Below are positions 3,038-47,299 of a DNA stretch of 58,128 nt, piece by piece. The DNA comes from a virus (lineage: Duplodnaviria; Caudoviricetes): the IMG/VR virus record IMGVR_UViG_3300030104_004696, positions 1-58,128 of that record; one strand, given 5' to 3'. Below the pieces are notes generated by a model. The model did not search any database. It was not told the origin of the DNA and saw only the letters and a list, made by a program, of their open reading frames with translations. Position numbers and translations under genes: made by a program. Each line of letters starts with the position of its first letter. Within the stretch, counting starts at the first letter, position 1.

Positions 3038-6000
3038 ATGGATGAGAAAGAGTTAGAAGCTTTATTTGAACTATTACAAGAAAGTGAGAGTGGTCTTGAA
3101 GATGTAAACGAGGCGAGAGCTATAATTGAAACTGAAGGGATAGGAGTTTTCTTTCCCTTAGTAGAAGATAGTTTTGAATCTACAGAACAATTTCAACAAG
3201 CTTTTCCAAGCTTAAAAAAAAAAGACGATTCACAATTTTCTTCCGAAGAGGAAGTTATGGTATCAGATACAGAACAAGTTCAAGAACCTGGCTCATCGGA
3301 GCCTTCTCCTCAAATACCATCTGAACCAGCTGGTAGTTCACTAACCACACCCCCTATTCAACCTGAAGTAGTTGAGACTACTGCAGAAGAAGTTGTCACA
3401 GAAACTCCTGTTGAGGAGGATCTGATGGAAACAGATACTGAAGAACTATATCAGTCTGATGGTTTAATTACTGATGAATATACTTCACCTGGTCTAATAG
3501 AGGCTACTGATGAAGATGTAGATAATCTCCCTGGTATATTAGGATTGTTCGATTATAACGAATGGATGGACTTTGGAGATGATGTAGTTAAAACTGTAGG
3601 GAACGCTGTCGATAGAGGTAACACAGTAGATGAAGCTTTAAAATTATTATATGAGGGAGCTGATGCTAAAGATATAGATATAGAAAACTTTCTAAAAGTA
3701 TTACAAGATTTAGAAGACGGGGAATATGTAAGAGAAGAGGAGGAATGGAATAAAGCTAAAGAAAAATGGGGTGGCGGAGCTTTTGGTTGGTTGATGGCTT
3801 ATTATGAAAACCCTACTCGAGCTCCATTAGCACTAATACAATCTGTTACTCAATTAGCAAACAAAGCATCTTTATCAGCGGGGGGAACTGTAGTGGCAGG
3901 AACAACAGCGGCAGGAGCTGCAGCGGCAGGAGCAGGTGCAGTACCTGCATTTGTAGCCAGTCTTCCTTGGGCTTATGGTGCGGCCAGTGCTACATTAGAA
4001 ACAGGTCTTACTTTTGCAGAGTTACTTGAAGAACAAGTAAAAGAAAATGGAGATGAATGGAATTTAGAAGGGGTAAAAAAAGTATTAAGTAACCCAGAGC
4101 AGCTTCAAGATTTAAGAATAAAATCTGCAGGTAGAGGTGCGGTTATAGGTTTAGTAGATAAATATACGGGAGGTATAACCAGTTCTATGGTTAAAAAAGC
4201 CGCTAAAGATGTAAGTAAACAAACCCTTAAAGAAGGACTTAAAACAGCGGTAAAAGTAGAAGCAGTAGGTTCTGTAGGTGGAGGTGTTGGGGAAGTTTTA
4301 GGTATGACGGTAGCTGGTCAAGAGTATGATGTAGCAGAAATTTTAGACGAGATGTTTATAGGAACTCAGGGTACCGCAGTAGAGGCGGGTTCTGCTATTA
4401 CATTAAATAAAATTAGACCTGCTGTTTATAAACTAAACTCTAAAGGAAAAGATGGTATTGTATCAGAGCAAGATATGATTACTTTTTTAAAGACAGCTAC
4501 TGATGCAGAAATAGCAGAGGCTGAAGTTACTATTGAAAATAATAGTGCTCTTAAAAAAATTGCGGAAGATAGAAAGAACAAAGCTCAAAAGGATGCTATA
4601 GTAAAAGCAGAATTAAAACGATTAGGCATTAATAATGAGCAAGATTTAAATGAACTTACATCTTTAGAGCATGAAAAAAGCAGGTTAGAAAAAGATAATA
4701 CCAGAGCTTCCAAGAGAAGATTGGTAGAGGTTAATAATAGAATAGATGAAATATTAGATAATACAAAAGTAGAAACAACTGCAGAAGTTGAGGTGACAGA
4801 TCAAGAAGCAAGAGAGTCTTTGGAGTTAGACAATGAATTAAACGCTCAAATGGAATCACGAGGTATGCCTAATTCAGGGCAACAAATTATTGATGATGCC
4901 GCAATACAAGAAAGAAAAAATAAACTAATAAAAGAGAAACAAGATGCCATTCAAGAGTCAAGCACAACGCAGGTGGATGTACAAGAATCTACCCAAGATA
5001 GCCAAGAGGTGGGAGAAAGAGACACCCCTGGGCAGCCTACCCAAGAAGGTCAAGAAAATCAAACAGATATTGAAACGCAACAAGAGACGGAAATAGAAAC
5101 TCCCGCTTTCGAGCAAGTAGATGAAACAGTATCTATGAATAGGAGTAAAATACCTCCTAATAAAACTCGTTTTGCGTTTAGCGAATTAGTAAAAGAAACT
5201 GCTGTTAAAGCAGGGAAAGCTTTAAAAAACATTGTACCTGAAATAAAAATTGTACTGCATGAAAATGCTAATGACTTTGCTGATCAAGCAAATGACAATG
5301 CTAATAACAGAGGGGTATATGATAACAATACTAAAACCATACATATTAATTTAGAAAAAGCTAAACGTTCTACTATAGCTCATGAAACTTTTCACGCAAT
5401 TATTTTAAGTAAACTTAAGACTGATGTTAATACTCAACAAGTTACTAAAAAAATGATGCAGTCGTTAGCAAAGACATTACCTAAAGATTCAGCTTTGTTA
5501 AAAAAAGTAAATGAGTTTGCGGCTAACTATGATGCTAATTTACAAAACGAAGAAAAGGTGGCAGAAATAGTAGGAGAATTATCTTCTAACTACCAGCAAT
5601 TATCGGCTCCTCAAAAGAGTTTAATTCGTAGATGGATAAATAAGATTGCCCAAACTTTAGGTATTAAAAAAGAATTAGATAGTGCTACCCAAACTGACCA
5701 GGATGTAATTGATTTACTTAATACTTTATCTAAAAAAGTTAGAACAGGAGAAACCATTACTGAGCAAGATGTTAGTGTATTAGATGAAGGAAGAGTTCAA
5801 AAACCTGTGAAGGAAACTAAAAAAACTTCTAAACCTAAACAGCGTCAGCAGAAAGGACAGCCTACAACTATGGCTAAACTTATGAACTTTTATAAGATGG
5901 ATAAAGATGGTTTTATAGAACCTAAAAATGTTTATGATTTAGATGCCTTGGAAGAATGGGCGGGGAAGGTAGGACATAGAGTGGACCGATCAAGAGGTGA

Positions 6001-21805: not shown

Positions 21806-22072
21806 TTATTTACTTTTATTTATTAATTCTATTGCGTACTTATTTAATTCTTTTTTTGATCGTTTACCTATTCTCTCTATAATTTCTTCAAGTAGTTTCA
21901 TATCATTCTCCTCTACTAATCCATAGTAACTCGCTTCTCCAATAAAACTCTCCATTATACTTTCATCTTCATATAGGTTATATTTGGATAGCCTTTTAAA
22001 ATATAGGTTATAAAACTTACCTAATTGTTGGTACTGCATTAAATTCCCTATTGTTTCTTGTTCGTATTTCAT
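21806..22072 (-). CDS. Hypothetical early protein
   Basis: 88 aa; AATAGAT-ATG leader. Confidence 0.65.
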   Translation of the reverse strand: MKYEQETIGNLMQYQQLGKFYNLYFKRLSKYNLYEDESIMESFIGEASYYGLVEENDMKLLEEIIERIGKRSKKELNKYAIELINKSK

Positions 22073-22091
22073 ATCTATTTTATTTTAATTA

Positions 22092-22265
22092 TTATATATT
22101 TTTTACGTGTTGATGCCAATAGTTAAGAATTTGTTGTATTTTTTCAATATCTTTTTTAAATTCTTTATCATTACCTCTTACTATTAAATTATCTATTATT
22201 TCGTTTGTATGATAATCTAATTTTATTAAATCATCTTTTAAAAATTCTTTTAAAGTTTCTTTCAT
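22092..22265 (-). CDS. Hypothetical early protein (57 aa, not in ORF track)
   Basis: MKETLKEFLKDDLIKLDYH...; same AATAGAT-ATG leader as neighbours. Confidence 0.55.
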   Translation of the reverse strand: MKETLKEFLKDDLIKLDYHTNEIIDNLIVRGNDKEFKKDIEKIQQILNYWHQHVKNI

Positions 22266-22284
22266 ATCTATTTAATTTTAATCT

Positions 22285-22360
22285 TAGAAAACACTATTGT
22301 CCTCTACCACCAAAAGCCCACTATTTTCATAGTGAGCCAAAGGTGTCCTACACACACAAT
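22285..22360 (-). ncRNA. Unclassified structured RNA element (two hairpins)
   Basis: Minus strand CACC-UUU-GGCUCACUAU-GAAA-AUAGUGGGCU-UUU-GGUG, then UAGAGGACA-AUAG-UGUUUUCUA; the G-U pairs work only on the minus strand. Confidence 0.55.
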
Positions 22361-22364
22361 TAAA

Positions 22365-22613
22365 TCATAACCAATACTCTTGACTGCACCATTTACTACA
22401 AAAGGTATTTTCTTCTTCTACCTCTTCATTGCAATTATTACATAAGTAAGGGTTTAATTCTTCATTACATTCATCACAATATTCTTCGTCCCAACCTCTT
22501 GGCACTTCTTTCCATTCATAATACTCATCACAATTATAACATTGCTCAAGATCCTTTGTTTTTTCTAATTCAGGAAACTCCATAAATTTTGCTTCTAATT
22601 CTTTTCTTGTCAT
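22365..22613 (-). CDS. Small Cys-rich zinc-finger protein
   Basis: CYNC, CDEC, CNNC and CSKWC motifs. Confidence 0.7.
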   Translation of the reverse strand: MTRKELEAKFMEFPELEKTKDLEQCYNCDEYYEWKEVPRGWDEEYCDECNEELNPYLCNNCNEEVEEENTFCSKWCSQEYWL

Positions 22614-22615
22614 AT

Positions 22616-22795
22616 CTATTTAATTTTATAATATTCAATTAGCAAACTATCTTGCTTTACTTGGTATTCGTTCCATAATTTATTCATCTCGTAATCAATC
22701 TTACTTCTTTGATGTAATTGTTCATCAGTAAGTTTGTTCATCATTCCACATGAAGTTAGTAAACTCGCTGTTATTACTATTAATATCTTTTTCAT
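22616..22795 (-). CDS. Small lipoprotein (59 aa, not in ORF track)
   Basis: MKKILIVITASLLTSC signal peptide II/lipobox; AATAGAT-ATG leader. Confidence 0.7.
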   Translation of the reverse strand: MKKILIVITASLLTSCGMMNKLTDEQLHQRSKIDYEMNKLWNEYQVKQDSLLIEYYKIK

Positions 22796-22797
22796 AT

Positions 22798-23268
22798 CTA
22801 TTCTATTTCAGTTAATACTCCGTTAATTTCCTCATACTGATAATCTCCAGTACATTCCCATTCAGTATAATATACTCCATAGTGATTGTATCCTATCTCT
22901 AATATATCATCATCATTTTTACTTTTCCAATTAGCAAATTCTACTCCACCATTTGCTATTTCCTCATCCATAAGTTCTTTGATATGTTTTACTGCATCTA
23001 CCTTATTCTTAAAGTATTCATCAGTTTGTTCATCTATCCATCCCTCATTCATTCCTTTGTGAGTGATAGAACATTTTCTTGCGTATTTCATATTGTGTGT
23101 TATGTACTCAGACGCCCATTCTAAAACTTGCTTAGATGATACTTCAGCATCTATGGTATCAGATAACTCATCATTCCATACTGATAAGTATAAATTGTCT
23201 TTATAGATTCTTGCATCTATTCCGTACTTACTTTTAAGTACCTCTACTGCTTTTTCGCTTGTTGTCAT
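22798..23268 (-). CDS. Hypothetical early protein
   Basis: 156 aa; its ATG is 23 nt downstream of the hammerhead A cleavage site. Confidence 0.7.
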   Translation of the reverse strand: MTTSEKAVEVLKSKYGIDARIYKDNLYLSVWNDELSDTIDAEVSSKQVLEWASEYITHNMKYARKCSITHKGMNEGWIDEQTDEYFKNKVDAVKHIKELMDEEIANGGVEFANWKSKNDDDILEIGYNHYGVYYTEWECTGDYQYEEINGVLTEIE

Positions 23269-23285
23269 TGTGTGTTATTTAAATT

Positions 23286-23339
23286 AATACTGACACTACT
23301 TGCGTAGTGTTTCGTCCCATTAGGACTCATCAGAGTATT
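23286..23339 (-). ncRNA. Type I hammerhead ribozyme A
   Basis: Minus strand AAUACU-CUGAUGA-GUCC(UAAUG)GGAC-GAAA-CACUAC(GCAA)GUAGUG-UC/AGUAUU: complete catalytic core, three perfect stems and GUC triplet; predicted cut between 23292 and 23291. Confidence 0.95.
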
Positions 23340-23465
23340 TTATCTGTATGCAGGACAGGAAGTAGCGTTCTTTTTAGCATAGCTTGATGCATATGGACAA
23401 TAGCTACTTGCACAACTTGATAATAAGAATGTTAATACTACCGCTACTAAAATTGACTTTTTCAT
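23340..23465 (-). CDS. 41-aa lipoprotein flanked by hammerhead ribozymes
   Basis: MKKSILVAVVLTFLLSSC lipobox; mature CASSYCPYASSYAKKNATSCPAYR; ACACACAAAACAA-ATG leader. Confidence 0.75.
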   Translation of the reverse strand: MKKSILVAVVLTFLLSSCASSYCPYASSYAKKNATSCPAYR

Positions 23466-23484
23466 TTGTTTTGTGTGTTGTTTT

Positions 23485-23542
23485 ATACTGACTATCTCAT
23501 TTGAGATAGTTTCGTTGCATTTCAGCAGACTCATCAGAGTAT
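23485..23542 (-). ncRNA. Type I hammerhead ribozyme B
   Basis: Minus strand AUACU-CUGAUGA-GUCUGC(UGAAAU)GCAAC-GAAA-CUAUCUCA(AA)UGAGAUAG-UC/AGUAU: complete core with one bulge in stem II; predicted cut between 23490 and 23489. Confidence 0.92.
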
Positions 23543-23710
23543 TTATTTGACCTCAACAAACTCAAAGTTTTTAAATTTGTCTCGTAGTTTTTGATTAATC
23601 TCTTTTATCAATTCAGACTCTTTAATCTTATAAAATGCGATTAACTCTTTGTTGTCTTTTGGGTTTTGGTTTAAACTCTTTATGAGTCTTTTTAATTCAA
23701 TTATATTCAT
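23543..23710 (-). CDS. Hypothetical early protein (55 aa, not in ORF track)
   Basis: MNIIELKRLIKSLNQNPKDNKELIAFYKIKESELIKEINQKLRDKFKNFEFVEVK; its stop abuts hammerhead B. Confidence 0.6.
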   Translation of the reverse strand: MNIIELKRLIKSLNQNPKDNKELIAFYKIKESELIKEINQKLRDKFKNFEFVEVK

Positions 23711-23738
23711 TTGTTTATTGTTTTATATTAATATTCTG

Positions 23739-24152
23739 TTAAAGGTTGTTGTATTGAGGCATTCTTTTTTGATAGTGTGCCGCTTTATATGATTTATGCA
23801 AATTGTGAAATAGTGTGTATTGTGCATGAAATAGCATATCCATTCCACACCCTGAAATTCTGCCATTCTCAGAAACACCCGCTAAGGATAATATTTCTTT
23901 ATCGCCTATTTTATGCAGTTTGTTCTTATAGATGTAAGCAAGTTTTATTGTTCTGCTCCTTCCTGATTTGCTAACGCTTTCAACACCGGCGTAAAATTTA
24001 CCTTTTAATAGTGCGTTTTTAATTCGTTGCAATTCTTCCGCTTTCCAATTTGTTAACTGCGGTTTGTCTTTCTCTGTCCAAAAATCAGAGGTTTTAATAT
24101 CTTCATTAACTAACGCTTCCGCAAGATTTAAAATATGTTTTGTTGTTTTCAT
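23739..24152 (-). CDS. Hypothetical early protein
   Basis: SVSKSGRSRTI...ISGCGMDMLF motif recalled from phage early proteins; ACACACAA-ATG leader. Confidence 0.7.
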   Translation of the reverse strand: MKTTKHILNLAEALVNEDIKTSDFWTEKDKPQLTNWKAEELQRIKNALLKGKFYAGVESVSKSGRSRTIKLAYIYKNKLHKIGDKEILSLAGVSENGRISGCGMDMLFHAQYTLFHNLHKSYKAAHYQKRMPQYNNL

Positions 24153-24171
24153 TTGTGTGTTTTTTTATTTA

Positions 24172-24309
24172 TTAATTTATTGTTTCAATTATTACGTCAT
24201 CATAACCTTTATTAATCCACTCTGATTTTTCAATTTGGGCTTCAATTAAGGTATTAAAATAGTTTGGAATCCCTCCAATCCATACAATATATTTTGTTTC
24301 TTTTTTCAT
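24172..24309 (-). CDS. First early gene, 45 aa (not in ORF track)
   Basis: MKKETKYIVWIGGIPNYFNTLIEAQIEKSEWINKGYDDVIIETIN; ACACACAA-ATG leader. Confidence 0.6.
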   Translation of the reverse strand: MKKETKYIVWIGGIPNYFNTLIEAQIEKSEWINKGYDDVIIETIN

Positions 24310-24349
24310 TTGTGTGTGATTTAAGTTAATATTATATTTAATTATTGTG

Positions 24350-24357
24350 CAAAGATA
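24350..24357 (-). promoter_or_regulatory. Early promoter -7 box TATCTTTG
   Basis: Matches TAnnTTTG at the head of the minus-strand arm. Confidence 0.75.
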
Positions 24358-24436
24358 GTTTAATTTTTCATATAATCACTATTAATTTAGTTTTATTTTC
24401 TTTACACATATGTTTTTATATTGTAAGTATATTGAT

Positions 24437-24449
24437 TATCAAGCAGTTA
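24437..24449 (+). promoter_or_regulatory. IHF-consensus-like site
   Basis: TATCAAGCAGTTA matches WATCAANNNNTTR. Confidence 0.4.
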
Positions 24450-24488
24450 TGTTGTTAATAACTTTTTGTTTTGTTTATGTGTTTTGAT

Positions 24489-24790
24489 GGTCGGAGGGGG
24501 ATAATGGGGGAAGTCTCATTGAGACAATGAGTCTTTAATCGTTCTTTATGCGGGGGAAAGGGGGAAAGGTTGGACAATATGCGTAGACATTAAGCAGTCA
24601 TTAAGGGATAATAAGAAGATAGACAGGGGGACAGGTAGGCGAACAGGTACACCCACCAACACCCCACCAAAAAAAGCTAAAAAATCTACACAAAAAATTT
24701 TAAAAAGTCAAAAGACAAACAACCCCCCCACCCCTTTCTCTATGGCGATGCTTGAGCGTATGATGTAGTATAGCCCTCAACCCCCAGACA
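24489..24790. other. Non-coding divergence region with G-tracts, hairpin and C-tracts (candidate packaging/terminus or control region)
   Basis: Five G5 runs, hairpin AAGTCTCATTG-AGA-CAATGAGTCTT (24511-24535), three ACAGG copies, then C-runs. Confidence 0.45.
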
Positions 24791-24805
24791 TCTAAAAAAA
24801 TTTTA

Positions 24806-24813
24806 TATCTTTG
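24806..24813 (+). promoter_or_regulatory. Promoter -7 box TATCTTTG
   Basis: At the head of the plus-strand arm. Confidence 0.75.
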
Positions 24814-24828
24814 TAAAAAATAAAAAAT

Positions 24829-24999
24829 ATGCCTACAGTAAAATATAAATGTGGAGACACAGGTAAAATGAAAAAGAAAACTTTCCCATACAATGCGGTG
24901 GGTAAAGCACAAGCAAGTGAGTTTGCTAAAACAATGGGTGGTAAGATTAAGAACAATCCAAGTTATGGTATGGAGAAAACAATGAAGTCCAGTTACTAA
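24829..24999 (+). CDS. Small basic protein (56 aa, not in ORF track)
   Basis: MPTVKYKCGDTGKMKKKTFPYNAVGKAQASEFAKTMGGKIKNNPSYGMEKTMKSSY. Confidence 0.65.
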   Translation: MPTVKYKCGDTGKMKKKTFPYNAVGKAQASEFAKTMGGKIKNNPSYGMEKTMKSSY

Positions 25000-25000
25000 T

Positions 25001-25282
25001 ATGAATTGTGGTTGCGGACAAACTCCTTGTAAGACTTATGGAAATAAAAAAAACAATAATAATATGAAAATGATGAACAACCCATTTAAAGGATCCGACA
25101 ATGTTGGAGGTCTTTATGTAGAAGACGGTAGATTAATTAATGGTCGTATGGACGGTGAAACGGGAATAGCACAAGCTGCTCGTATTAAGCGTGCAATTAA
25201 AAACGATAGAAAGATAAATAGAATAGCTGAAGGTATTGAATTGGCTGATAACAAAAAGAACTGGAGAGAGTTAGAGTTCTAA
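25001..25282 (+). CDS. Hypothetical protein
   Basis: 93 aa ORF followed by a terminator. Confidence 0.65.
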   Translation: MNCGCGQTPCKTYGNKKNNNNMKMMNNPFKGSDNVGGLYVEDGRLINGRMDGETGIAQAARIKRAIKNDRKINRIAEGIELADNKKNWRELEF

Positions 25283-25309
25283 AGATTCCCATTTGTTCTG
25301 TTGTGAAAA

Positions 25310-25342
25310 GGAGGTAAGACATTTAGTCTGCCTCTTTTTTTT
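25310..25342 (+). terminator. Rho-independent terminator
   Basis: GAGGTAAGAC-ATTTA-GTCTGCCTC hairpin plus T-tract. Confidence 0.75.
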
Positions 25343-25349
25343 ATATATA

Positions 25350-25512
25350 TGTTAATGTTCAACACTAAAGTGTTATTCTTTTTTAAAGTCAACACTAACT
25401 TAACTTATTGATTTACAATAACTTAAATACTATTAGTGTTAAAGTGTTAAGTTAAACTCTTTTTTTTATAATAATAATAATAATAATAATAATAGAATAT
25501 ATATATATATAA
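25350..25512. repeat. Second origin-like locus: AACACT/AGTGTT repeats, IHF-like site, (ATA)n and (AT)n tracts
   Basis: TAGTGTTAAAGTGTTAA at 25434-25450 is identical to 17480-17496; palindrome AACACTAAAGTGTT at 25361-25374; AATCAATAAGTTA on the minus strand at 25401-25413. Confidence 0.6.
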
Positions 25513-25562
25513 AAGAAAAAATAAATACAACATCTCACCACAATGTATATATATATTTTTAT

Positions 25563-25570
25563 TATCTTTG
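25563..25570 (+). promoter_or_regulatory. Promoter -7 box TATCTTTG (groEL)
   Basis: Matches TAnnTTTG upstream of groEL. Confidence 0.75.
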
Positions 25571-25602
25571 CCATAAATTAAATTTAATTAAATCACAACA
25601 AA

Positions 25603-27183
25603 ATGAAAGACCAAGGATACATTCCAAAAGACCTGTCTTTTGATGACAAGGCAAGAACCAAATTAATATCGGGAATCTCAAAAATCTCTAACGCAGTTAA
25701 ATCAACTCTGGGCCCCCAGGGCCAGACTGTATTGATTGAGTCAACACAGCATACTCAAGGGTTAACAGTAACTAAAGATGGTGTGACTGTCGCTAAGTCA
25801 ATCTTTCTTTTAGATCCTGTAGAAAACTTAGCGGTTAGAATGATGAAGCAGGCTTCTGAGAAAACTGCTAATACTGCAGGAGATGGAACAACTACAGCGA
25901 TTGTTTTAACGGAGGCTTTAGTAAAGGCTGGACAAAAGTATATTAAAGAAGGAGAGAATACTATTAAGGTAGTAAGGGCTATAAGAGAAGCAGGTGATAA
26001 GTTATTAGAAAGAATAAAAGAAGAATCGGTTGATGTAACTGATGATATGTTAAAAGATATAGCAACAATCTCTGCAAACAATGACAACGAGATTGGTGAG
26101 ATTATAGCTAAGGCTTATAAAGAAGTAGGGCGTGATGGCATAGTAACAGTTGAAAGATCTCAAACTGATGAGACCTATGCTGAGGTTACTAATGGTATTA
26201 AAGTAGATAGAGGATGGACTTCTCCTATGTTTATTAATGACCAAAGAAAAGATGAGTGTATATATGAGGATGTTAAAGTTTTAATATGTGATAGTGAAAT
26301 AAATAATATATTACAAATTGAGAATGTTCTAAAACCTATTATCAATGCAGGAGAAAAATTACTTATCATTGGAGACTGCTCAGGTAATGTGATTAATACT
26401 TTAGCCGCTAACGTACAAAGAAACGGACTGAAGTTCTGTAATATTGTCCCTCCATCATTTGGATATAAGACTCACGAGTTAATGCAAGATATTGCGTTTG
26501 CAGTAGGTGCTAAATACTTTTCAGAGAAAACAGGAGACGATTTATCCCTAATTAGAATGGAAGACTTAGGTCATGCAGATAAAATTATTGTAGGAAAAGA
26601 TAATACTATCATTATAAAAAACGGTGAGATTACTAAAGAGACTATAGCAAGAGTAGACGAGCTAAGAGACCAGCAAGAAAGACTAACAGCTAAACATGAG
26701 AAAGATTTTATTAATGAGAGAATCGCTTCTTTAGTTGGAGGAATAGGATGTATACAGGTAGGAGCTACTTCTGATATAGAGCAAAAAGAAAAATTTGACA
26801 GAGTCGATGACTCTGTCTGTGCAGTGCGTTCCGCACTACAGGAAGGAATAGTTGCTGGAGGAGGATTATTATTAAACACCTTATCTAAAGAATTAAAAGG
26901 AAAGAGTACTGCTGATAAGATTCTTAAAGAAACATTACAAGCTCCCTTACAGCAAATACTTGTAAACGCAGGATTAAATAAAAAAGATATCTATGAAGAA
27001 GATCTTAAAAAGAACTTCGGATATAATGTTGTTACAGGTAAATATGGAGATATGTTTGAAATGGGAGTTGTGGATCCAGCTAAGGTTACTATACAAGCTT
27101 TATCCAACGCTATTAGTGTAGCAACAACTATACTTACTACCAACGCTATAATAACTCACGCAAGAATAGGACAAGATGATTAA
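25603..27183 (+). CDS. groEL: Chaperonin GroEL (Cpn60)
   Basis: STLGPQG, VTKDGVTVAKSI, AGDGTTTA, IATISAN, EGIVAGGG and GVVDPAKV motifs; no GGM tail. Confidence 0.97.
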   Translation: MKDQGYIPKDLSFDDKARTKLISGISKISNAVKSTLGPQGQTVLIESTQHTQGLTVTKDGVTVAKSIFLLDPVENLAVRMMKQASEKTANTAGDGTTTAIVLTEALVKAGQKYIKEGENTIKVVRAIREAGDKLLERIKEESVDVTDDMLKDIATISANNDNEIGEIIAKAYKEVGRDGIVTVERSQTDETYAEVTNGIKVDRGWTSPMFINDQRKDECIYEDVKVLICDSEINNILQIENVLKPIINAGEKLLIIGDCSGNVINTLAANVQRNGLKFCNIVPPSFGYKTHELMQDIAFAVGAKYFSEKTGDDLSLIRMEDLGHADKIIVGKDNTIIIKNGEITKETIARVDELRDQQERLTAKHEKDFINERIASLVGGIGCIQVGATSDIEQKEKFDRVDDSVCAVRSALQEGIVAGGGLLLNTLSKELKGKSTADKILKETLQAPLQQILVNAGLNKKDIYEEDLKKNFGYNVVTGKYGDMFEMGVVDPAKVTIQALSNAISVATTILTTNAIITHARIGQDD

Positions 27184-46459: not shown

Positions 46460-47254
46460 ATGAAAAAACAAAACAAAGCTGTTGCTAAACAGTACCGATT
46501 AAAAAGAGATGTAGCTCCTTTATGTTTTATGCTATCTTCTCACCACAACAAAAGAACCCCATTACTTTATTTTGATGAAGACAAAGGGATAAACCGAGCT
46601 TTACGTTATGCACGAAATCAAAAAAGCCCTTTTGAGGATGAACAGGATGGAAATGCAATTATGGAACCTATTGTTTTTGAAGATGGGTTTTTAAATGTAG
46701 ATAGAGGAAATCAGGTTCTTCAAGAATTTTTATACTACCATCCACAAAATGGACATGTATATGAAGAAATTAATAATGCTAAAGACGCTGCGGAAGAATT
46801 AGAAATAGAAGAAATAATTTTAGATGCTCAAATATTAGCAAAAGAATTAGATCTTTCTACCCTTGAGAGTTTATCCAGAGTTTTATTTGGATCACAAGCA
46901 GATAAAAGAAGTACAGCAGAACTTCGTAGAGACATGTTAGTGTTCTCTCGTACTAACCCAGCTGATTTTATGGACATGTTAAATGATCCTTCACTTCAAG
47001 TGTATGATGATGTTTCTCAATTTTTTGGAGCTAACTTATTAATAGTTAAAAACAAAAATAGAGATGTTTACTTTAACTTAGCTACTAATAAAACTAAAAT
47101 GTTAACTGTTCCTTTTGGAGAAGACGCTAAAGATATTGTGGCTTCTTATATGCAAACTGATCAAGGAGTAGAAACATATAAGCTTTTAAATAAAATGCTA
47201 AAAGGAGACACTAAGAAATCTTCTAAAAAGAAACTCAAAAAGACTGAAGAGTAA
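46460..47254 (+). CDS. Conserved hypothetical protein after capsid gene
   Basis: 264 aa ORF between two terminators. Confidence 0.7.
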   Translation: MKKQNKAVAKQYRLKRDVAPLCFMLSSHHNKRTPLLYFDEDKGINRALRYARNQKSPFEDEQDGNAIMEPIVFEDGFLNVDRGNQVLQEFLYYHPQNGHVYEEINNAKDAAEELEIEEIILDAQILAKELDLSTLESLSRVLFGSQADKRSTAELRRDMLVFSRTNPADFMDMLNDPSLQVYDDVSQFFGANLLIVKNKNRDVYFNLATNKTKMLTVPFGEDAKDIVASYMQTDQGVETYKLLNKMLKGDTKKSSKKKLKKTEE

Positions 47255-47260
47255 TAAAGA

Positions 47261-47288
47261 GAGCACCTTAAATAGGTGCTTTTTTTTT
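47261..47288 (+). terminator. Rho-independent terminator
   Basis: AGCACCT-TAAAT-AGGTGCT plus T-tract. Confidence 0.85.
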
Positions 47289-47291
47289 ATC

Positions 47292-47299
47292 TATCTTTG
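47292..47299 (+). promoter_or_regulatory. Promoter -7 box TATCTTTG
   Basis: Directly after the terminator. Confidence 0.7.

What the first reader, a model, noticed from the sequence alone, without database searches (positions are those of the whole stretch)
23286..23542. Two tandem hammerhead ribozymes punctuate the phage early mRNA
Seen: two complete type I hammerheads on the transcribed minus strand, each with CUGAUGA, GAAA and a GUC triplet. Stems II and III differ entirely in sequence between the copies yet still pair, which argues for selection on structure. Each begins at the base immediately after a stop codon (23543, 23340) and cuts 24 or 23 nt before the next ATG (23465, 23268). Established: hammerheads self-cleave after NUH, leaving 5'-OH and 2',3'-cyclic phosphate ends. 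Inference: the phage uses ribozymes as protein-independent processing sites that cut the first early transcript into single-gene units, analogous to T7 RNase III sites. Hammerheads are known from some phages, but I know of no described function for this tandem gene-flanking layout.
Basis: partly seen in the sequence, partly recalled or inferred. Interest (0 to 1): 0.93.

Follow-up and report, generated by a model that had tools for sequence, protein, structure and literature searches.

The report
Two hammerhead ribozymes between phage genes
Two genuine self-cutting hammerhead RNA motifs sit between small genes of an uncultured marine Flavobacteriales phage and most likely chop one long message into single-gene pieces, a layout first described for phages in 2011.

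Summary
On the minus strand there are two complete type I hammerheads (23542-23485 and 23339-23286). Each starts right after a stop codon and would cut 24 or 23 nt before the next ATG.

Rfam does not report them at its gathering scores. A covariance model built only from relatives' copies scores them at 65.2 and 40.9 bits, against 16.4 bits for the next best hit in the window.

The same module was found 70 times in 48 sources, almost all contigs of related ~60-kb phages:
- 98.1% of cells are paired, and 15 of 17 pairs show compensatory changes.
- In 62 of 70 copies the cut lies 19-35 nt before an ORF start.
- 68 cultured Flavobacterium Elemovirus records hold the homologous locus of a variant copy, labelled only as hypothetical proteins.

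Processing of a polycistronic message is the best reading, but nothing here shows cleavage or RNA ends.

It is not new. Perreault et al. 2011 (PMC3088659, passages seen) described clustered hammerheads flanking single phage genes, proposed this function and showed cleavage in vitro. This scan has also noted such layouts on other DNA.

Verdict: a real, well-conserved, uncatalogued subfamily, and a new member of a known kind.

The parts
23485..23542 (-). Hammerhead HH1, type I (stem I open). Predicted cut between 23490 (C17) and 23489.
   Evidence: Sequence read. Rfam RAGATH-1-hammerhead 31.2 bits, E 0.0032 on 651 nt, below the gathering score. R2 40.9 bits, E 5e-10. Stems II and III are recovered by thermodynamic folding in every context, stem I is not.
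23286..23339 (-). Hammerhead HH2, type I. Predicted cut between 23292 (C17) and 23291.
   Evidence: Rfam Hammerhead_1 24.6 bits, E 0.0015 on 651 nt, below the gathering score. R2 65.2 bits, E 1e-17. The full three-stem fold is the minimum-energy structure of the isolated 54-mer.
23466..23489 (-). 24-nt leader left on the downstream RNA after the HH1 cut: the stem I 3' strand plus an A/C-rich stretch ending just before the ATG at 23465.
   Evidence: The same ACACA-type leader precedes the first two leftward genes, which have no ribozyme.
23269..23291 (-). 23-nt leader left after the HH2 cut, ending before the ATG at 23268.
23543..23710 (-). Upstream 55-aa ORF. Its stop codon (23545-23543) abuts HH1.
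   Evidence: No Pfam family.
23340..23465 (-). 41-aa ORF between the two ribozymes, with a signal peptide and a lipobox-like LSSC (small lipoprotein candidate). Its stop codon (23342-23340) abuts HH2. The 64-aa ORF listed from 23534 starts at the AUG inside the CUGAUGA core and is probably spurious.
   Evidence: A homologue follows a hammerhead in relative G001.
22798..23268 (-). 156-aa ORF downstream of HH2. Function unknown, with a weak DUF5376 match below the cut-off.
   Evidence: Its 91%-identical orthologue in L116/L069 is also preceded by a hammerhead, and a 45%-identical homologue in L115 is not.
23292..23489 (-). 198-nt fragment that double cleavage would release. It carries the 41-aa ORF with nearly the whole of HH2 at its 3' end.
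   Evidence: Arithmetic. The existence of this RNA is inferred.
24350..24357 (-). TATCTTTG box, a candidate Bacteroidota-type -7 promoter element for the leftward gene block.
   Evidence: the only copy on the minus strand, against 11 on the plus strand. The TAnnTTTG consensus is recalled from memory, and the general motif is not enriched (97 found, 89.1 expected).

Best explanation
Both elements are functional type I hammerhead ribozymes carried in the leftward polycistronic transcript of a ~58-kb phage of marine Flavobacteriales. That gene block also holds the replication genes, so it is probably the early transcript.

As the RNA is made, each ribozyme folds and cuts itself after C17, at 23490|23489 and 23292|23291.

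Because the type I topology leaves stem I open, almost the whole ribozyme stays on the upstream piece. That piece therefore ends about 50 nt after its stop codon in two stable hairpins and a 2',3'-cyclic phosphate.

The downstream piece starts with a 5'-OH, 5-6 nt of weak A/U-rich stem I strand and an unstructured A/C-rich leader of about 24 nt before its ATG.

The long message is thereby divided into a promoter-proximal three-gene piece, a single-gene piece and the downstream remainder. The stability and translation of each piece can then differ.

What is shown: the motif, its conservation, its covariation and its geometry. What is inferred: cleavage in vivo, the transcript map, and the effects on stability and translation.
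For: - Complete core and three stems in both copies.
- An independent model from relatives scores both copies far above the background of the window.
- 70 copies in 48 sources, 56 of them distinct. 98.1% of cells pair, 15 of 17 pairs have changes on both sides, and the covariation score is 0.680 against 0.139 in shuffles (0 of 500 reach it) and at most 0.091 with slid partners. The only invariant pairs are the two the catalytic fold requires, G10.1-C11.1 and A15.1-U16.1.
- Geometry: in 62 of 70 copies an ORF of at least 30 codons starts 19-35 nt after the cut (median 26). In 58 of 66 the upstream stop lies within -6 to +14 nt of the ribozyme start.
- In 20 related records, chosen because they hold a copy, there are 1-4 copies each. 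In the 13 of these 20 records that hold more than one, all lie on one strand; they sit within about 0.4-4.3 kb of each other. One record has four within 1.5 kb.
- Where both flanking genes are conserved between contigs, the partner junction also carries a hammerhead in 40 of 41 pairs. The one exception is an ORF-calling artefact.
- An orthologous site (L069/L116) keeps the ribozyme with different stems I and II.
- There is one candidate promoter box and no terminator-like site on the minus strand across the region.
- Published precedent: clustered prophage hammerheads cleave in vitro and in E. coli, and the 5' end of a halovirus transcript maps within 3 nt of a hammerhead cut 13 nt before a start codon (passages of PMC3088659).
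Against: - No RNA data: no RNA run was listed as holding the stretch, and the two runs laid do not cover 22692-24111.
- Rfam gathering scores are not reached.
- Stem I is only 5-6 mostly A-U pairs. In HH1 and in longer contexts the minimum-energy fold replaces it with other pairings.
- I identified no stem I / loop II tertiary contact, which natural hammerheads usually need for fast cleavage at cellular Mg2+.
- The loci were gathered with a pattern taken from the window's own stem I and core. Conservation of those parts is therefore partly by construction. The alignment was also fitted to the model.
- The ribozyme is not tied to particular genes. Of 2 relatives of the 156-aa gene found by protein search, 1 has a plain hairpin instead. 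One related record (MW202828.1) and one more distant one (Maribacter phage Panino) gave no hit.
- Most genes of the same block are packed with a median gap of 12 nt and no ribozyme, so processing is not generally needed for their expression.
Confidence: 0.7

Rival explanations
1. The ribozyme with its leader is mainly a portable boundary of gene cassettes. Its conserved core would serve as a homologous-recombination junction for swapping small early genes between co-infecting phages, and cleavage would be secondary.
For: - Compared with relative G001, the window has HH2 plus the 156-aa gene as one ~540-nt unit. It sits exactly between a lipoprotein stop codon and the next gene.
- HH1 combines the stem III of one G001 ribozyme with the gene that follows another.
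- 62 downstream ORFs fall into 39 protein clusters, and identical ribozymes precede unrelated genes. Identical stem III sequences also occur with different stem II sequences.
Against: The control does not single out the ribozyme junctions. The gene after the junction is also homologous in 31 of 142 pairs (0.22) at hammerhead junctions. At ribozyme-free junctions within 1.5 kb the figure is 122 of 512 (0.24), and beyond 3 kb it is 0.62. The whole region is therefore mosaic. ORF calling in that script was crude.
Confidence: 0.1
2. Cleavage is a conditional switch coupled to translation of the upstream gene. Because the stop codon touches stem I, a terminating ribosome would hold the 5' strand and core unfolded, so the cutting rate would report upstream translation. 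A related version is that cleavage is needed to free a 5'-proximal leader for translation of the next gene.
For: - The stop codon lies within -1 to +2 nt of the model start in 34 of 66 copies, and the cut-to-ATG spacing is narrow.
- RNA mycoviruses use type I hammerheads just upstream of ORFs for translation initiation (PMC13725137, passages).
Against: - Tight spacing is also what simple genome compaction would give.
- Neighbouring genes without ribozymes carry the same leader and are presumably translated.
- There are no data on kinetics.
Confidence: 0.12
3. The pair excises a 198-nt RNA that is circularised. HH1 and HH2 share the same stem I sequence, so the ends of the excised piece could be brought together in a rebuilt hammerhead and ligated.
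For: - The stem I strands of the two copies are identical, and the fragment length is 198 nt.
- This is how retrozyme-like circles arise (mentioned passages).
Against: - Perreault et al. looked for circular or spliced products of clustered phage hammerheads and found none.
- Neighbouring copies in several relatives have different stem I sequences, for example L051 and L076.
- The ORF has an ordinary stop codon.
- There are no RNA data.
Confidence: 0.04
4. The motifs are non-catalytic intergenic hairpins (stabilisers or pause sites), or HH1 is the coding N-terminus of a 64-aa protein, and they resemble hammerheads only by chance.
For: - Both score below Rfam's gathering scores.
- An open frame runs from the AUG in the HH1 core into the lipoprotein ORF.
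Against: - The core nucleotides are invariant in all 14 and all 18 seed copies (U7 is C in one of the 18) while the stems covary.
- Only 3 of 300 shuffles give any hit to the strict descriptor.
- The N-terminal extension would bury the signal peptide, and it is out of frame in HH2 and in relatives.
Confidence: 0.04

Closest known systems
Clustered hammerheads flanking genes in prophages (Perreault et al. 2011, PMC3088659; passages seen)
   Same: - Several same-strand hammerheads close together bracket single genes or short gene blocks of varying identity.
- The proposed role is processing of long phage transcripts into single-gene or operon-length mRNAs.
- Three such arrangements cleaved in vitro and one in E. 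coli.
   Different: - The tested examples came from Clostridium, Azorhizobium and Agrobacterium prophage regions.
- Here the copies are all type I, lie in ~60-kb phages of Flavobacteriales, and follow a near-fixed stop-ribozyme-~25 nt-ATG geometry.
- I could not see that paper's figures or Dataset S1, so similar marine copies may already be listed there.
HHphage of haloviruses HF1/HF2 (discussed in PMC3088659)
   Same: A hammerhead lies a few nucleotides (13) upstream of the start codon of an early gene, and the mapped 5' end of the transcript lies within 3 nt of the cut.
   Different: It is a single copy with a variant core, in an archaeal virus, at the start of a transcript rather than between genes.
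Rfam Hammerhead_1 (RF00163) and RAGATH-1-hammerhead (RF03152)
   Same: Same catalytic core and type I topology. Both models align end to end with the two sites.
   Different: The scores are below both gathering cut-offs (24.6 against 34, and 31.2 against 56.3), so routine annotation misses them. The upstream hairpin of RAGATH-1 is not evident here.
Type I hammerheads in UTRs of RNA mycoviruses (PMC13725137; passages seen)
   Same: Type I topology, a long helix III, no obvious loop-loop contact, and a cut a few nucleotides before an ORF start. In one case the ribozyme fills the whole intergenic UTR.
   Different: Those are RNA genomes of eukaryotic viruses, where the proposed role is cap-independent translation. 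Here the ribozymes lie in a DNA phage of bacteria.
RNase III processing sites of the phage T7 early mRNA, and synthetic ribozyme insulators such as RiboJ
   Same: In function they are cuts between genes of one early transcript. They leave defined ends and a hairpin at the 3' end of the upstream piece, or a defined 5' leader.
   Different: T7 depends on a host protein enzyme, and RiboJ is engineered. Neither shares sequence or fold with these sites.

Membership tests
Hammerhead ribozyme (clan CL00010) | Conserved core: C3 U4 G5 A6 N7 G8 A9, G12 A13 A14, and H17 (not G) at the cleavage site | tested here: met
   Both copies read CUGAUGA ... GAA ... U C17. The core columns are invariant in all 14 and all 18 aligned copies, except that U7, a free position, is C in one of the 18.
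Hammerhead ribozyme (clan CL00010) | Three helices around the core, with G10.1-C11.1 and A15.1-U16.1 closing pairs, supported by covariation | tested here: met
   98.1% of cells paired, 15 of 17 pairs with changes on both sides, and the two closing pairs invariant in 56 of 56 distinct copies. Caveats: the alignment was fitted to the model, and stem I was partly fixed by the search pattern.
Hammerhead ribozyme (clan CL00010) | Score at or above Rfam's curated gathering threshold | tested here: not met
   No hit at gathering scores over the whole window. Sub-threshold hits of 24.6 against 34 (RF00163) and 31.2 against 56.3 (RF03152). This is a property of those models' seed alignments, not of the motif definition.
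Hammerhead ribozyme (clan CL00010) | Site-specific self-cleavage giving 2',3'-cyclic phosphate and 5'-OH ends | not testable with these tools
   The RNA runs listed do not cover the site. An in vitro assay is needed.
Hammerhead ribozyme (clan CL00010) | Tertiary contact between stem I and loop II, needed for fast cleavage at low Mg2+ | tested here: inconclusive
   Stem I is 5-6 pairs with single strands beyond it. By eye I saw no consistent Watson-Crick match between loop II and the flanks among the copies, and I ran no formal test.
Type I topology | Stem I open (5' and 3' ends), stems II and III closed by loops | tested here: met
   All 70 copies align to the type I model end to end, except one cut by a contig end.
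Clustered gene-flanking phage hammerheads (Perreault 2011) | Two or more same-strand hammerheads close together that bracket single genes within one phage transcription unit | tested here: met
   The two copies are 198 nt apart and bracket one 41-aa ORF, on the same strand as all neighbouring genes. Relatives carry 1-4 copies. The single transcription unit is inferred.

The most novel reading that the evidence does not exclude
In these phages of Shine-Dalgarno-poor Bacteroidota, the type I hammerhead plus its ~25-nt unstructured leader would be a promoter-independent 'message start' module. Cleavage would create a free 5'-OH end at a near-fixed distance from the ATG and would be required to switch on, or strongly boost, translation and stability of the downstream small gene. 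That would be a bacterial counterpart of the ribozyme-assisted translation initiation just reported for RNA mycoviruses, and it would let newly acquired genes be expressed without their own promoter.
Probability: 0.18. Interest if true: 0.7.

Novelty: new member of a known kind. Interest (0 to 1): 0.42.

Why it matters
The biological role of nearly all genome-encoded hammerheads is still unproven. The processing hypothesis for phage clusters dates from 2011 and, according to a 2019 review, still needed work.

This case adds three things:
- A large, coherent and currently unannotated subfamily. Rfam thresholds miss it, and in GenBank Elemovirus records the site is covered by a spurious opposite-strand ORF.
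- A rule-like geometry of stop codon, ribozyme, ~25-nt leader and ATG, which makes quantitative predictions.
- A cultured host-phage pair carrying a variant copy (Flavobacterium sp. BAL314 with its Elemovirus isolates). With it the hypothesis could be tested directly by end-specific RNA sequencing and ribozyme-dead phage mutants.

It also matters for annotation. The AUG inside the CUGAUGA core can seed false gene starts.

Tried and rejected
- **Rfam:** the search at gathering scores over the whole window found nothing.
- **DNA similarity:** blastn of 22000-25000 against GenBank phages gave no match.
- **RNA evidence:** no RNA holder was listed. The two metatranscriptome contig sets from the same sample were laid at 85% likeness and gave only short, poorly matching pieces, with none on 22692-24111. 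This says nothing either way.
- **Promoters:** the sigma-70 scan was uninformative (36 sites against 35.3 expected). The general TAnnTTTG motif is not enriched (97 against 89.1). Only the specific TATCTTTG variant shows a pattern.
- **Recombination-junction idea:** I tested it against neighbouring junctions and found no excess.
- **Circular RNA:** considered and kept only as a low-probability rival.
- **Tertiary contact:** I looked by eye for loop II pairing with the flanks among the copies and found nothing consistent.
- **Protein-based search for relatives of the 156-aa gene:** it returned only 2 loci, too few for an unbiased conservation rate.
- **Literature:**
  - A search for hammerhead plus Flavobacterium phage returned 4 papers, none on this topic judging by title and abstract.
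  - A search combining hammerhead ribozymes, gene cassette, recombination and mosaic listed 12 of 378 papers holding at least 4 of 5 terms, none relevant.
  - The Baltic Flavobacterium phage paper PMC7077304 has no occurrence of 'hammerhead' or 'ribozyme'.
  - Supplements, including Perreault's Dataset S1 alignments, and figures were not seen.

Full report
**The site.** The window is a whole IMG/VR virus record of 58,128 bases with 33% G+C, rated 100% complete by CheckV. On the minus strand, one search shows two complete type I hammerheads.
- HH1 (23542-23485): stem I AUACU/AGUAU, core CUGAUGA, a stem II with one bulged C and a UGAAAU loop, GAA, an 8-pair stem III and C17 at 23490.
- HH2 (23339-23286): a 6-pair stem I, the same core, a 4-5 pair stem II, a 7-pair stem III capped by GCAA, and C17 at 23292.
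- The stop codons of the upstream ORFs end at 23543 and 23340, one base before each ribozyme.
- The predicted 5'-OH ends are 23489 and 23291, and the next ATGs are at 23465 and 23268.

**More than chance?**
- Rfam reports nothing at its gathering scores.
- On a 651-nt stretch it gives sub-threshold hits. Hammerhead_1 hits HH2 with 24.6 bits against a cut-off of 34. RAGATH-1-hammerhead hits HH1 with 31.2 bits against 56.3.
- A strict descriptor of my own finds HH2 as the only hit in the window, and 3 of 300 dinucleotide shuffles give any hit. It misses HH1 because of the stem II bulge.
- Model R2, built only from 18 copies in other contigs, scores the two sites at 65.2 and 40.9 bits (E 1e-17 and 5e-10). 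The next hit scores 16.4 bits and looks like a terminator hairpin at 47238-47287.
- Model R1, which included the window copies in its seed, finds the same two and nothing else.
- The window therefore holds exactly two copies.

**Relatives.**
- A 15-base stretch of the window's ribozyme, and then a pattern built from stem I, the core and the cleavage triplet, were scanned over viral contigs. This returned 47 loci. Many come from contigs of 50-65 kb.
- The first four loci share synteny and 70-95% identical proteins with the window, including a GroEL-like gene and the replication genes.
- R1 finds 70 hammerheads in the 48 sources, including copies with other stem I sequences that the pattern could not have selected.
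- On the model-fitted alignment (56 distinct rows):
  - 98.1% of cells pair and 15 of 17 pairs have changes on both sides.
  - The covariation score is 0.680, against 0.139 in shuffles (0 of 500 reach it) and at most 0.091 with slid partners.
  - The two invariant pairs are exactly G10.1-C11.1 and A15.1-U16.1.
- Caveats: the alignment is fitted to the model, and most of stem I was fixed by my pattern.

**Layout.**
- In 62 of 70 copies an ORF of at least 30 codons starts 19-35 nt after the cut (median 26). Seven are farther or nearer, and one is cut by a contig end.
- In 58 of 66 copies with a detectable upstream ORF, its stop codon lies within -6 to +14 nt of the ribozyme start. In 34 of 66 it lies within -1 to +2 nt.
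- Twenty related records, chosen because they hold a copy, carry 1-4 copies each (36 in all). In the records with more than one, all copies share one strand and lie within about 0.4-4.3 kb of each other. One record has four copies within 1.5 kb.
- The leaders are A/C-rich. The same ACACA-type leader also precedes the first two leftward genes of the window, which have no ribozyme.

**Host and cultured relatives.**
- The primase-helicase is closest to proteins of Flavobacterium, Polaribacter, Cellulophaga and Maribacter phages.
- The same ribozyme pattern occurs in 16 contigs of the species-genome collection. Fourteen of them are labelled Flavobacteriales, Weeksellaceae or Bacteroidetes.
- Among named records:
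  - Flavobacterium phage vB_FspP_elemoE_10-3D (MT497078.1) has one variant copy at 27095-27152, scoring 38.4 bits. It lies between two same-strand genes under an opposite-strand 'hypothetical protein'.
  - The locus is at least 95% identical in 68 Flavobacterium phage records.
  - MW202828.1 and Maribacter phage Panino gave no hit.

**Transcription context.**
- The leftward block from 24309 down to about 11541 holds many small ORFs followed by replication genes. These are a primase-helicase, an SNF2 helicase and a PDDEXK nuclease.
- The only minus-strand copy of TATCTTTG lies at 24357-24350, 41 nt before the first leftward ATG. Eleven plus-strand copies mostly sit just before plus-strand genes.
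- No terminator-like site lies on the minus strand between 24300 and 20000.
- This fits a single leftward transcript with the ribozymes about 0.8 and 1.0 kb from its start. The promoter consensus is recalled from memory and the timing is inferred.

**Mechanism.** The type I topology puts nearly the whole ribozyme on the upstream product. That product keeps its stop codon and ends in two hairpins with a cyclic phosphate. The downstream product keeps only 5-6 nt of a weak A/U stem and an open leader. Thermodynamic folding recovers stems II and III in every context, but not the weak stem I of HH1. A weak stem I would favour release of the product, but it also leaves activity at cellular Mg2+ uncertain. 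I identified no tertiary contact.

**What is known.**
- Perreault et al. 2011 (passages) state three things:
[quoted passage not shown] - Three tandem arrangements cleaved in vitro and one in E. coli.
- They also looked for spliced or circular products and found none.
- A 2019 review says the idea still needs work.
- Earlier notes of this scan reached the same conclusion for other genomes.

**Mosaic region.**
- Compared with G001, the window carries HH2 plus the 156-aa gene as one unit. It sits between a lipoprotein stop codon and the next gene.
- HH1 looks like a hybrid of two G001 ribozymes.
- Downstream genes fall into 39 clusters among 62 ORFs.
- However, synteny across hammerhead junctions (31 of 142 pairs) is no lower than across ribozyme-free junctions within 1.5 kb (122 of 512), so the ribozymes are not special breakpoints.
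- Where both flanking genes persist, the ribozyme persists in 40 of 41 pairs, and the one exception is an ORF-calling artefact. The loci were ascertained by ribozyme content, so this figure is biased.
- In a small protein-based sample, 1 of 2 homologues of the 156-aa gene has a hammerhead upstream and the other has a plain hairpin.

**Verdict.** The case is a new, large and testable subfamily of a known kind.

Noticed in passing
window 22280-22352 (minus); copies in L097, L098, L013, L059, L085: A conserved two-hairpin intergenic RNA-like element lies about 20-25 nt before a gene start. In relative G001 one copy lies directly after a hammerhead. Across 7 copies, 15 pairs are predicted and 8 of them have compensatory changes. 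There is no Rfam match (best E 1.4, noise). It occupies the same kind of slot as the ribozymes, and its function is unknown.
   Followed up: partly
window 23340-23534 (minus): The AUG inside the CUGAUGA core of HH1 is in frame with the small lipoprotein ORF. This gives a 64-aa ORF that a gene caller could pick by mistake. In GenBank MT497078.1 the hammerhead is covered by an opposite-strand 'hypothetical protein'.
   Followed up: partly
L013, L035, L057, L059, L063, L069, L070, L071, L080, L085 (hammerheads whose stem I reads GAUACU): In this subclass the 3' cleavage product starts with a sequence that can fold into a 5-pair 5'-terminal hairpin, using the stem I strand and a downstream near-copy of its partner. 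Such a hairpin would compete with stem I and could cap the new 5' end. It is not present in the window's two copies.
   Followed up: no
window 24310-25600: The divergent region between the leftward and rightward gene blocks holds G-rich and C-rich runs and a long ATT/ATA simple repeat (about 25455-25529). In many relatives the contig ends within a few kb of the hammerheads, so a genome terminus or an assembly break may lie here.
   Followed up: no
window 25603-27183 (+): A 526-aa GroEL-like chaperonin gene, 70-87% identical in related contigs.
   Followed up: no
window 47238-47287 (+) and 47292-47299: A hairpin followed by a U run (terminator-like) is followed at once by a TATCTTTG box. Eleven such boxes on the plus strand mostly sit just upstream of plus-strand genes and may be the phage's promoter -7 element.
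   Followed up: partly
L050 about 4265-4330 (+): Directly after one hammerhead there is a second, degenerate hammerhead-like motif with a CUGAUGA core and a GAAAC.
   Followed up: no
window 22616-22795 and 23340-23465 (minus): Two small ORFs with signal peptides and lipobox-like cysteines (59 and 41 aa) lie among the first leftward genes. They are candidates for small lipoproteins such as superinfection-exclusion factors. This is inference only.
   Followed up: no
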